Assembly (NCBI RefSeq): GCF_009914755.1
Contig: NC_060928.1
Length of the DNA stretch: 64,000 bases
Origin: the human T2T-CHM13v2.0 reference genome, Homo sapiens
Reading direction: 5' to 3' (one strand)
Position numbers and translations under genes: made by a program. Each line of letters begins with the position of its first letter. Position 1 is the first letter of the stretch. Shown in pieces: positions 20,326-39,720 of the stretch. The notes beneath the pieces are model-generated. The model was not told where the DNA came from and searched no databases. It saw only the letters and a list, made by a program, of their open reading frames with translations.

Positions 20326-28236
<7,911 letters not shown>

Positions 28237-28379
28237 TTAATAGATGCACAGATGAAGTATTTAGTGTTAAAGTATACTGATGTCTGCAACTTATTTTCAA
28301 ATGCATAAATCAATAAGACAGATTAAAGGATTAATGAATAAATATGTGATAAAGCAAATTATTTAAACCCAATACTTAC

Positions 28380-28574
28380 ATTGTGACTGTGACAAAATCC
28401 AATTCCATTAATAATCTGAAACAAATACTTTTGAACTACTTGGTAGTCTAGTCCATTTGGAAAGAGCTCCAAGTCATCAAGAATTGTGTGGTCAACAAAT
28501 TCAAAGACTAGGTACCATCGTTTTTTTTTCTTACACACTTCCAAGAGATTCACCAAGTTTTCATGCCTAAGTTG
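28380..28574 (-). CDS. CDKL2: CDKL2 exon 3
   Basis: taacag|CAA CTT AGG...CAC AAT|gtaagt; 195 nt; [65 protein letters not shown]. Confidence 0.96.
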
Positions 28575-29837
28575 CTGTTATTAAAAAATGCAAAATAGCT
28601 GTTATTTAAAAATGCAAAATAGTTTATATAAACTAAGATCAAATTATTAGCAATTAATTATTTAAAATAGATCTCAGCGTAAGAAAAATATATAAATAAA
28701 ATGCATACATAGTGTAAATTGTAAAAGCATATTCTGGTTTTTAAACTACAATTGAGAGACTATATTGCTCCTTTCTCCTCTCAGAGAACAAAATAAAGCT
28801 AATAAGAAAAATAAGTGTAACTCCATCTTTGCTAAAACTAAGAGGGATCTATGACCCCCTACTCACAACAAATGAGATGGGACTACTAAATCTAATCACG
28901 GTCAAACAGGAGTATAGGAAGGCACCAAAAGATCATCTGTGGCTACAAAGCTGGAAGCGTAAGAGTTCTCTGAAGCCAGTGACATACCCTGAAAAGACAA
29001 AAAAGTCCTCCTTTAATATAATGGAAAACTATGTATACATATATATAGTATATATATATATGTATATTCATATATATATATACACTATATATATATGAAA
29101 TAAGGCTCATAGACAGCAGTGAAAACATCCCTAGAACTGAATGGCACCAAGAAACAGCATTGGGGAAGGGCTGGATAAGGAATCACACAGAAACACATTT
29201 GCTGGAAACAATCTCTCAGTGAGGCAGTGTAGAAGGCAAAACAATTCATTATGAACAAGCCTGCAACTGCAAGTTTTAGAGAAATTAAACCTAATAGAAT
29301 TAAATCCCACACTGAGGCATATGTGATAAGGAACACCATTGTGAATTATGGTAAATTCCTGCTAGCCTGGAACAAAGTCATGGCCTCTCCCCAGAACCTC
29401 CTACAAATAGTCCTCCAAAGACTCAGACTTTATTATAAGAAACAATCAAAAAGGAACCAATCAAGGATCTATTCAAAGATGTAAGAAATGGGGAAGAAAG
29501 GAGAAAGAAACATAAATGGTAGATTAACACTCACCAGAAAAAAATGTTGCCACCTTTAAAGGGAAAGAAACCAATGGAATGCAGAATACAGCTCTCAAAA
29601 TCCTCAAGAAAATCCAAGTATGATCCAGGAACTTTATACCCAACCAAACTGTCATTCAAGTAAAAGCATGAATGAGCATTCAAGTAAAAACAACATGAGC
29701 ATTGAATCCATTTAAGGCAGGACTAAATCTTATACAAATGTGGGCATCATGGTTATGAAACAGAAAGTGAACATTTTAAATGCAACAATGCACAAATGAT
29801 ATAGAAGATGTAAACAAGATAAAAGTGTATATATACA

Positions 29838-30847
<1,010 letters not shown>

Positions 30848-30883
30848 TCAAAAATCATATAGAAAAATGTTTTTTAAAGAGTT

Positions 30884-31336
30884 ATACATCATAGAATATT
30901 ATGCAGCCATAAAAAAGAATGAGATCATGTCCTTTGCAGGGACATGGATGGAGCTAGAAGCCATTATCCTCAGCAAACTAATAGGAACAGAAAACCAAAT
31001 ACCACATGTTGTCACTTATAAGTGGGAGCTAAATGATGAGTGCACATAGAGGGGAACAACACACACTGGGGCCTACCGGAGGGCAAAGGGTGGGAGAAGG
31101 GAGAGGACCAGGAAAAATGACTGACAAATAATTGTTTAAACCCAAGACTTACATCGTGACTGCGACAAAATCCAATTCCATTATTAATAATCTGAAACAA
31201 GTACTTTTGAACTAGTTGGTAGTCTAGTCCATTTGGAAAGAGCTCCAAGTCATCAAACCCCATGACACATGTTTACCTATGTAACAAACCTGTACATCCT
31301 GCACATGTACCCCTGAACTTAAAAGTTAAAAAAAAA
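30884..31336 (+). mobile_element. Older primate L1PA/PB 3' end (ORF2 end, 3'UTR, polyA) interrupted by a CDKL2 exon-3 copy
   Basis: YYAAIKKNEIMSFAGTWMELEAIILSKL; ends catgtacccctgaacttaaaagttaaaaaaaaa. Confidence 0.92.
31130..31256 (-). pseudogene. Partial duplicate of CDKL2 exon 3 plus donor and intron start, embedded in an L1 3' end
   Basis: Aligns to 28357-28480 with 6 substitutions and one 3-nt insertion; translates [34 protein letters not shown]|gtaagt. Confidence 0.92.
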
Positions 31337-31946
31337 CACAAACTTCTACCCTGCCTTCCCTTAAAACAGACATTTTACAATGTAAAAGAAGCGTTGCCAA
31401 GAAAAAAATAAAAGTTATAAAAGAGTATGATATTATACATAATAATAACTAATACTTACACAATGCTTACTATGTTCCAGGTACTATTCTAAGCACAAAA
31501 GCCTTATGAAATAGGTACAATTATTATCCTGCTTTATAGCTGAAGCAACTAACTCACACAGAGGTCAAGGAACTTGTCCAAGGTCACACAGCAATAACTG
31601 GTAGAGGCATGATTAAAACACCTTCTCAAAAAAACCAAAAAAACTAAACAAACCAACAAAAATGCCCCAAAACCCACAAATTTCATATCCTAATGGAACT
31701 ATAAATTCTGACAAGTTCTATTTTATCAAATTAAGAAATCTAAATAATACTAGAATGTCACTTGTTCCATTGGGCTGTTTTGGCACATTTCTAATAGAAG
31801 AAAACATTACACTAAAACTTTTTACTCTTTAAAAATTCACACTATAGCACCAGATAATTTATCTTTCTCTACTCTATGTCAAGTCCTTCTTGCAAAGATT
31901 TCCACAGTAGCTCCAAACCTGCAATCATAATTAAAACAGACTATCG

Positions 31947-32691
<745 letters not shown>

Positions 32692-32699
32692 TAAAAGTT

Positions 32700-39720
<7,021 letters not shown>

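What the first reader, a model, noticed from the sequence alone, without database searches (positions are those of the whole stretch)
30884..31336. A copy of CDKL2 exon 3 pasted inside an L1 3' end in the gene's own intron 2
Seen: 31130-31256 is a direct-orientation copy of 28357-28480 (3' half of exon 3, the GTAAGT donor and ~20 nt of intron) with 6 substitutions and one in-frame 3-nt insertion. L1 3'UTR sequence stops at ...ggaaaaatgact and resumes at caaaccccatgacac, with 'caa' shared at that junction. From my recollection of the consensus, about 50 nt of L1 is replaced. The copy includes intron sequence, so it is not a processed-mRNA retrocopy, and it has no polyA or TSD of its own. Inference: either templated break repair using DNA 2.8 kb away, or a double template switch during L1 integration. 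Either way a kinase exon fragment was captured in cis.
Basis: partly seen in the sequence, partly recalled or inferred. Interest (0 to 1): 0.8.

Follow-up and report, generated by a model that had tools for sequence, protein, structure and literature searches.

The report
Exon fragment patched into intronic L1
A 127-base copy of part of a CDKL2 exon, with its splice donor, sits inside an old L1 repeat 2.8 kb away in the same gene; it is most likely the decaying scar of an ancient DNA break repair, which is a known kind of event.

Summary
Window 31130-31256 is a direct copy of 28357-28480: the last 101 nt of CDKL2 exon 3, the GTAAGT donor and 23 nt of intron. It differs by 6 substitutions and one 3-nt insertion.

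It lies inside a 5'-truncated L1 3' end (30883-31336, + strand). Aligned against 29 other genomic copies, this L1 lacks 47 nt exactly where the insert sits. The insert occurs nowhere else in the genome except at its source, so it is a local event and not a mobile chimera.

The right junction shares CAA. The left junction holds 7 nt that match neither partner. The insert has no poly(A) or target-site duplication of its own. The copy has 3 replacement changes and 1 silent change, two of them at residues that paralogues keep, so it is decaying neutrally.

Best reading (0.55): a break or stalled fork in a resident L1 was mended by copying nearby DNA. This matches templated insertion by end joining or replicative template switching. 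Rivals are a patch copied from pre-mRNA, capture during L1 integration, and duplication followed by deletion. The age comparison could not separate them (4.0% against 7.3%, p = 0.35). This is a known kind of event, of low to moderate interest.

The parts
28357..28480 (-). Donor sequence: the last 101 nt of CDKL2 exon 3 (28380-28480), the GTAAGT donor and 23 nt of intron 3 (28357-28379).
   Evidence: and the hub annotation. The exon translates as a kinase-domain segment. CDKL3 on contig C5 has a paralogous exon with the same borders, so the exon is the ancient copy.
30883..31122 (+). Left part of a 5'-truncated L1 3' end, stopping at ...AAAAATGACT.
   Evidence: 39 other genomic matches at 84-88%; alignment with 29 copies; homology starts at 30883 in 25 of 35 alignments; 17 of 239 sites differ from the column majority.
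31123..31129 (.). Seven nt at the left junction (GACAAAT) of unclear origin. They are either filler, or 2 nt of filler followed by 5 more donor bases (CAAAT = 28355-28359) and a 3-nt AAT duplication.
   Evidence: No template longer than 8-9 nt was found within 25000-37000 on either strand.
31130..31256 (-). The copy: 23 nt of intron-equivalent sequence (31130-31152), the donor ACTTAC on the + strand at 31147-31152, and 104 nt of exon-equivalent sequence (31153-31256) that includes a 3-nt ATT insertion.
   Evidence: The translation differs from the exon by V>L, +N, H>R and N>D plus one silent change.
31254..31256 (.). CAA shared by the end of the exon copy and the point where L1 resumes (3-nt microhomology).
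   Evidence: Random junctions in this window show 3 nt or more of microhomology in 6.0% of 20000 trials.
31257..31336 (+). Right part of the same L1 3' end, with its A-run at 31328-31336.
   Evidence: matches at 91-97%.; 5 of 61 sites differ from the majority, similar to the left part.

Best explanation
A 5'-truncated L1 3' end was already resident in CDKL2 intron 2, antisense to the gene. In an ancestral germline a double-strand break or stalled fork arose inside its 3' UTR, and about 47 nt of L1 were lost.

Proposed sequence of events (all inferred):
- The right-hand end carried a 3' tail on the - strand that ended in the complement of CAAACCCC.
- That tail paired through the 3-nt CAA with the + strand of exon 3, 2.77 kb to the left. 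Long resection of the other end, or a sister or fork template, could have exposed that strand.
- A polymerase copied about 124 nt across the exon-intron border.
- The new strand came off and was joined to the left end with 0-7 nt of filler.

The product is a direct-orientation, intron-bearing copy of half an exon inside the L1. It has since drifted neutrally and has no shown function.

Shown: the structure, its uniqueness in the genome, the direction of copying, the junction features and the neutral decay.
Inferred: the break, the order of the steps, the enzymes involved and the timing relative to the L1 insertion.
For: 1. The structure is one insertion plus deletion: 131 nt replace 47 nt of L1.
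2. Both L1 flanks belong to one element. They are collinear, and they differ from the column majority at 17 of 239 and 5 of 61 sites, i.e. 7.1% and 8.2%.
3. The donor is intact, and it is the only other copy in the genome (2 of 2 candidates scored).
4. No homology could have driven recombination. No other L1 3' end was found in the window, and the junctions share at most CAA.
5. The insert has no poly(A) and no TSD. There is a microdeletion at the acceptor, microhomology at one junction and unmatched bases at the other. These are the junction features listed for class 2 templated insertions (PMC5110952, whole text parts 1-2 read). They are also reported for templated inserts copied from nearby sequence by end joining (PMC4490562, passages) and by replicative switching, with inserts from 7 bp to 13 kb (PMC5120786, passages).
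6. Direct orientation is what the model requires if one 3' tail pairs with the other end's resected strand.
7. The exon is the ancient copy. CDKL3 has an exon with the same borders. The copy has 3 replacement changes and 1 silent one, and it has lost the H and N that CDKL3 and a CDK5-like locus keep.
Against: - Timing is not shown. The insert's exon part differs from its source at 4 of 101 sites (4.0%, 95% CI 1.1-9.8%). The L1 differs from the majority of its relatives at 22 of 300 sites (7.3%, CI 4.7-10.9%). Fisher p = 0.35. The L1 may or may not be older than the insert.
- A 3-nt microhomology occurs at 6.0% of random junctions here, so it is weak evidence.
- The left junction shows no clear microhomology.
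- By my recollection, inserts made by polymerase theta are mostly tens of bases, copied from within about 100 bp of the break. An insert of 124 nt copied from 2.77 kb away would be at the long end.
- No tool here could show a break, or tell a DNA template from an RNA template.
Confidence: 0.55

Rival explanations
1. The break in the L1 was patched with a cDNA copied from unspliced, locally tethered CDKL2 pre-mRNA. This would be a class 2 templated sequence insertion whose donor happens to be the host gene's own nascent transcript.
For: The junction features match class 2 insertions: no TSD, no poly(A), a microdeletion, microhomology and unmatched bases. Experimental inserts of that class were 73-414 bp, were enriched for transcribed sequence, and were reduced by reverse-transcriptase inhibitors (PMC5110952). 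The donor is a transcribed exon-intron border, and the break lies in the same transcription unit.
Against: That class is defined by donors from distant regions, whereas this donor is 2.77 kb away. Nothing in the sequence separates RNA from DNA as the template, because the piece is unspliced. A free patch could be ligated in either orientation, so the direct orientation is a 1-in-2 outcome under this model and not a requirement.
Confidence: 0.15
2. The fragment was captured while the L1 was integrating. The L1 reverse transcriptase (or second-strand synthesis) left the L1 template, copied local genomic DNA or nascent host RNA for about 124 nt, and then returned to the L1 template 47 nt further on.
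For: The ages of the L1 and the insert are not separable. Template switching by LINE reverse transcriptases yields chimeras, including tripartite ones (PMC2104539, seen as search listing and abstract start only; Law and Burns preprint 10.1101/2025.02.02.635956, abstract and passages).
Against: The catalogued L1 chimeras carry the foreign part 5' of the L1, not inside it. Here the insert is internal and antisense to the L1. First-strand synthesis would need an antisense CDKL2 template, and no such transcript is annotated in the hub table. It would also have to return to the same L1 RNA (inference). No TSD of 7 nt or more flanks the L1, so even standard integration hallmarks are not visible.
Confidence: 0.1
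3. Two separate events produced the structure. First came a 2.77-kb tandem duplication running from 28357 to the L1 breakpoint. Later a deletion of about 2.7 kb removed everything in the second copy after its first 124 nt, together with 47 nt of L1.
For: The layout A-B-A'-C, with A' exactly abutting the end of B, is what such a duplication junction would leave. Both observed junctions are compatible with it.
Against: It needs two independent non-homologous events whose endpoints happen to leave a clean 124-nt remnant. No trace of a second copy of 28481-31122 remains: the only other repeats found in 27000-33000 are Alu-type repeat families and one short AT-rich pair. Tandem repeats usually collapse by homologous recombination, which would restore the original (established knowledge).
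Confidence: 0.12
4. The insert is an assembly artefact.
For: None was found. I could not inspect reads.
Against: The copy differs from its source by 6 substitutions and a 3-nt insertion. It has clean junctions inside a repeat. A mis-join of reads would produce identical sequence.
Confidence: 0.02

Closest known systems
Class 2 templated sequence insertions (Onozawa and Aplan; PMC5110952)
   Same: A patch of about 100-400 bp copied from an intact donor sits at a site that shows a microdeletion, microhomology and unmatched bases. It has no TSD and no poly(A). It is heritable.
   Different: Those donors lie in distant regions or on other chromosomes and are thought to be RNA-derived. Here the donor is 2.77 kb away in the same gene, in direct orientation, and the template type is unknown.
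Templated inserts of polymerase-theta-mediated end joining (PMC4490562; PMC7165422 seen in listing only)
   Same: The insert is identical to sequence near the break. Priming uses minute base pairing between 3' tails. There is a small deletion at the break. Inserts of this kind are seen in germline and evolutionary indels.
   Different: By my recollection such inserts are usually much shorter and are copied from within about 100 bp. This one is 124-126 nt copied from 2.77 kb away. Enzyme dependence cannot be tested on a fossil.
FoSTeS/MMBIR templated insertions at rearrangement junctions (PMC5120786; PMC8421209)
   Same: Switching to a nearby template and back, with short microhomology. Insert sizes from 7 bp to kilobases are reported. 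Germline MMB-TI events are held to build up over evolution.
   Different: Those were mostly described at junctions of larger copy-number changes, or as short inverted events near quasi-palindromes. This is an isolated, simple, direct insertion with a 47-nt loss.
L1 chimeric retrocopies made by template switching (U6/L1 type; Law and Burns preprint; PMC2104539)
   Same: Non-L1 sequence is fused to an L1 3' end.
   Different: In the known chimeras the foreign RNA lies 5' of the L1, usually in sense orientation, within one TSD-flanked insertion. Here the foreign piece is internal, antisense and carries intron sequence, and no TSD is visible.

Membership tests
Class 2 templated sequence insertion | No target-site duplication and no poly(A) at the insert. 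| tested here: met
   the flanking L1 is deleted by 47 nt, not duplicated, and neither end of the insert has an A-run.
Class 2 templated sequence insertion | Microdeletion, microhomology or non-templated bases at the junctions. | tested here: met
   47 nt lost. CAA shared at the right junction. 7 unmatched nt at the left junction.
Class 2 templated sequence insertion | The donor stays intact at its own locus. | tested here: met
   Exon 3 is intact and annotated as coding (translation; hub table).
Class 2 templated sequence insertion | The donor lies in a distant genomic region. | tested here: not met
   The donor is 2773 nt away on the same strand.
Polymerase-theta end-joining templated insert | The insert matches sequence near the break, with at least 1 nt of homology at a junction and a small deletion. 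| tested here: met
   However, 'near' here means 2.77 kb, which is far for this class (the size norms are recalled, not taken from a call).
Polymerase-theta end-joining templated insert | Dependence on POLQ. | not testable with these tools
   This is an ancient germline event.
FoSTeS/MMBIR templated insertion | Microhomology at every template switch. | tested here: inconclusive
   The right junction has 3 nt, with a chance expectation of 6.0%. The left junction is blurred by 7 nt.
L1 chimeric retrocopy (template switch during integration) | The foreign part lies 5' of the L1 part, within one TSD-flanked, poly(A)-ended insertion. | tested here: not met
   The foreign part is internal, with L1 on both sides. 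No TSD of 7 nt or more was found.
L1 chimeric retrocopy (template switch during integration) | The L1 and the foreign part arrived at the same time. | tested here: inconclusive
   4 of 101 against 22 of 300 differences, p = 0.35. Orthologue alignments were not available.
Processed retrocopy | Spliced sequence without introns, a poly(A) tail and a TSD. | tested here: not met
   The copy holds the donor and 23 nt of intron, and has no poly(A).
L1 3' or 5' transduction | Flanking genomic sequence is carried at an end of the L1 copy. | tested here: not met
   The piece lies inside the 3' UTR. The chimera is found at no other locus.

The most novel reading that the evidence does not exclude
The fragment was taken up while the L1 integrated. 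On this reading ORF2p, or second-strand synthesis, left the L1 template, copied about 124 nt of local host DNA or nascent CDKL2 pre-mRNA, and then returned 47 nt further on. That would be an internal, antisense, intron-bearing L1 chimera. The catalogue I read does not cover this form, because it searched only 5' of L1 copies.
Probability: 0.1. Interest if true: 0.6.

Novelty: new member of a known kind. Interest (0 to 1): 0.25.

Why it matters
It is a clean, datable fossil of an unusually long templated patch: about 124 nt copied from 2.77 kb away in the germline. It is useful as a worked example for surveys of templated insertions in T2T genomes.

It also shows how an intact 5' splice site and half a coding exon can be seeded inside an intron. 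Here they sit next to the pyrimidine-rich, AG-bearing antisense tail of an L1, which is raw material for a cryptic exon. As read here, every such exon would carry a stop codon, and no RefSeq transcript uses it. No effect on CDKL2 is shown.

Tried and rejected
1. Relative dating. The L1 differs from the column majority of 29 relatives at 22 of 300 sites. The insert's exon part differs from its source at 4 of 101 sites, and the whole insert at 6 of 124. Fisher p = 0.35 and 0.40. No decision is possible. The relatives were the top hits to this copy, which may make the L1 look younger than it is.

2. Template for the 7-nt filler. Only 8-9-mers were found within 25000-37000, in AT-rich DNA. I rejected these as evidence.

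3. TSD of the L1. Nothing of 7 nt or more was found apart from A-runs.

4. A homologous partner near exon 3. No other match to the L1 query was found in the window, so ordinary gene conversion or unequal crossing-over is rejected.

5. A 9-nt word, AATAATCTG. It is shared by the lost L1 segment (17 of 29 relatives share a word of 9 nt or more with the source) and by the middle of the copied exon (28410-28418). 38 of 1018 real 124-nt windows, and 26 of 2000 shuffles, reach 9 nt. This was noticed post hoc and is weak. It may have helped the first pairing, but the final structure does not need it.

6. Mobile chimera. Rejected.

7. Coding use of the copy. The 34 codons are open, but with 3 replacement changes to 1 silent one, and with conserved H and N lost. 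I found no sign of constraint.

8. Print search.
- CDKL2 + LINE-1 found 14 papers, 10 listed. Nine are on DNA methylation in liver cancer by their titles, and one is an unrelated preprint on chromosome anomalies.
- CDKL2 + cryptic exon / pseudoexon / poison exon: none of the 8 listed papers holds CDKL2.
- 'Exon fragment' + templated insertion + intron + retrotransposon: nothing relevant among the 10 listed.

9. Earlier findings of this scan were not open to the session.

10. Primate orthologues, repeat-family naming (Dfam/RepeatMasker) and RNA-seq were not available in any tool.

Full report
**1. What is there**

The window's + strand at 31130-31256 repeats 28357-28480 in direct orientation. 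The repeat finder reports two adjoining pairs, 59 nt at 92% and 74 nt at 97%, with spacings of 2773 and 2776. MAFFT and blastn give 127 columns, 6 mismatches, one 3-nt gap, 92.9% identity and E 5.6e-50. The next best hit in the 64-kb window has E 0.11.

By the hub's annotation, CDKL2 exon 3 is 28380-28574 on the - strand. The repeated piece is therefore the last 101 of its 195 nt, the GTAAGT donor, and 23 nt of the following intron. The copy lies in intron 2, 2.77 kb upstream in gene terms.

**2. The host repeat**

30884-31122 matches 39 other places in the same genome at 84-88% over nearly its whole length (40 of 3140 candidates scored, one being itself). 31251-31320 matches many places at 91-97% (40 of 1442 scored). 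Homology starts at 30883 in 25 of 35 alignments. An A-run ends the element at 31328-31336.

This is a 5'-truncated L1 3' end on the + strand, antisense to CDKL2. The identification as L1 and its likeness to older primate subfamilies rest on my recollection of L1 3' ends. No tool here names repeat families. No TSD of 7 nt or more was found.

**3. The junctions**

In an alignment with 29 other copies, L1 runs to ...AAAAATGACT (31122) and resumes at CAAACCCC (31254). Between these two points, 24 of the 29 copies have exactly 47 nt; the others have 32, 37, 38, 48 and 49. The window has 131 nt there.

- Right junction: CAA can belong either to the exon copy or to L1. Random junctions in this window show 3 nt or more of such microhomology in 6.0% of 20000 trials.
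- Left junction: seven nt (GACAAAT, 31123-31129) match neither partner without gaps. Alternatively, five of them (CAAAT) continue the donor, if a 3-nt AAT duplication is allowed. No longer template for them was found within 12 kb.

The two L1 flanks differ from the column majority of their relatives at 17 of 239 and 5 of 61 sites. That fits one element.

**4. Local and unique**

A genome-wide search with the insert and 12 nt (left) and 6 nt (right) of flank found two candidates, both scored: the insert itself and the exon.

An assembly error is unlikely, because the two copies differ at six sites and by an indel.

**5. Direction and fate**

The exon is the original. A CDKL3 exon on contig C5 matches all 65 residues, with the same borders.

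The copy reads ...[22 protein letters not shown] where the exon reads ...[21 protein letters not shown]. That is three replacements, one added residue and one silent change. The H and the final N that the copy has lost are kept in CDKL3 and in a CDK5-like locus, so these changes fell on the copy. I see no sign of constraint.

**6. Timing**

The exon part of the insert has 4 changes in 101 nt (4.0%, CI 1.1-9.8%). The L1 has 22 in 300 (7.3%, CI 4.7-10.9%). Fisher p = 0.35.

With recalled primate neutral rates of about 1-2.2e-9 per site per year, the insert is roughly 20-40 million years old and the L1 is the same age or older. The data do not separate them.

**7. Mechanism**

The anatomy is this. 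An intact donor lies nearby. The insert is 124-126 nt and has no poly(A) or TSD. The acceptor has a 47-nt loss. One junction has short microhomology, the other has unmatched bases. There is no longer homology anywhere: one search finds no other L1 3' end in the window.

This is the anatomy of a templated patch at a break. It fits three descriptions in print:
- Class 2 templated sequence insertions, in every listed junction feature but not in donor distance (PMC5110952, parts 1-2 of the whole text).
- The 'templated inserts' copied from sequence close to a break by polymerase-theta end joining, where minute pairing of two 3' tails primes synthesis (PMC4490562, passages).
- Replicative template switching, with reported inserts of 7 bp to 13 kb from nearby loci (PMC5120786, passages; PMC8421209, passages).

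My preferred reconstruction is inference:
- The right end's - strand 3' tail paired at CAA with the + strand of exon 3, exposed on the resected left end or on a sister template.
- About 124 nt were copied.
- The new strand then detached and was joined near the left end.

This model requires the direct orientation that is seen.

**8. Rivals**

- (a) A cDNA patch from unspliced nascent CDKL2 pre-mRNA. The sequence does not exclude it, since intron sequence excludes only spliced mRNA.
- (b) Capture during L1 integration. The known L1 chimeras carry the foreign part 5' of the L1 (Law and Burns preprint, abstract and passages; CDKL2 is not mentioned there). Here the piece is internal and antisense. 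First-strand synthesis would need an antisense template and a return to the same RNA.
- (c) A 2.77-kb tandem duplication followed by a 2.7-kb deletion gives the same layout but needs two events.
- (d) Artefact, which is unlikely.

**9. Side observations**

The lost L1 segment, as seen in 17 of 29 relatives, shares a word of at least 9 nt (AATAATCTG) with the middle of the copied exon. 38 of 1018 real windows, and 26 of 2000 shuffles, do as well. This is a weak, post hoc hint that it helped the first pairing.

On the gene strand, the copy's intact donor lies downstream of the L1's antisense T-run and AG dinucleotides. Candidate exons of 165 and 160 nt (starting at 31317 or 31312) both meet a stop codon. 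No RefSeq transcript in the hub table has an exon there.

**10. Verdict**

The mechanism is most likely a templated repair patch, which is a known kind of event.

This locus did not turn up in my searches of the literature. Supplements were not consulted. Interest is low to moderate.

Noticed in passing
window 31153-31317, - strand: There is a potential cryptic exon. The copied GTAAGT donor is intact, and the L1's antisense T-run with AG sites gives acceptor-like sites at 31317 and 31312 (exons of 165 and 160 nt). Both readings hit a stop codon, so inclusion would truncate CDKL2. No annotated transcript uses it.
   Followed up: partly
window 28410-28418 and 31186-31194, and the L1 segment missing between 31122 and 31254: A 9-nt word, AATAATCTG, is shared by the copied exon and by the 47-nt L1 segment that was lost (seen in related L1 copies). 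The chance level is about 1-4%. Its meaning is unclear.
   Followed up: partly
window 30884-31122: The L1 left part is about 10 nt shorter than most relatives: 239 query bases align to 249 subject bases. Separately, the copies that best match the right part (95-97%) match the left part at only 76-83%. The last 80 nt of L1 therefore seem to be conserved across subfamilies.
   Followed up: no
L047 (G000:C8:123900632-123900826 and flanks): An uninterrupted 154-residue open frame resembles a CDK5-type kinase across what should be several exons. It looks like a processed retrocopy. It turned up as a weak hit to the exon 3 peptide.
   Followed up: no
window 27900-28215 and 30500-30842: Alu elements lie close to both partners. 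One ends about 140 nt before the donor segment. Another ends 40 nt before the L1's 5' end. Neither breakpoint lies in an Alu.
   Followed up: no
window 31080-31122: The hub's masked stretch ends at 31079, but alignment with 29 L1 copies carries L1 homology on to 31122. The mask therefore understates the L1 left arm by about 43 nt.
   Followed up: partly
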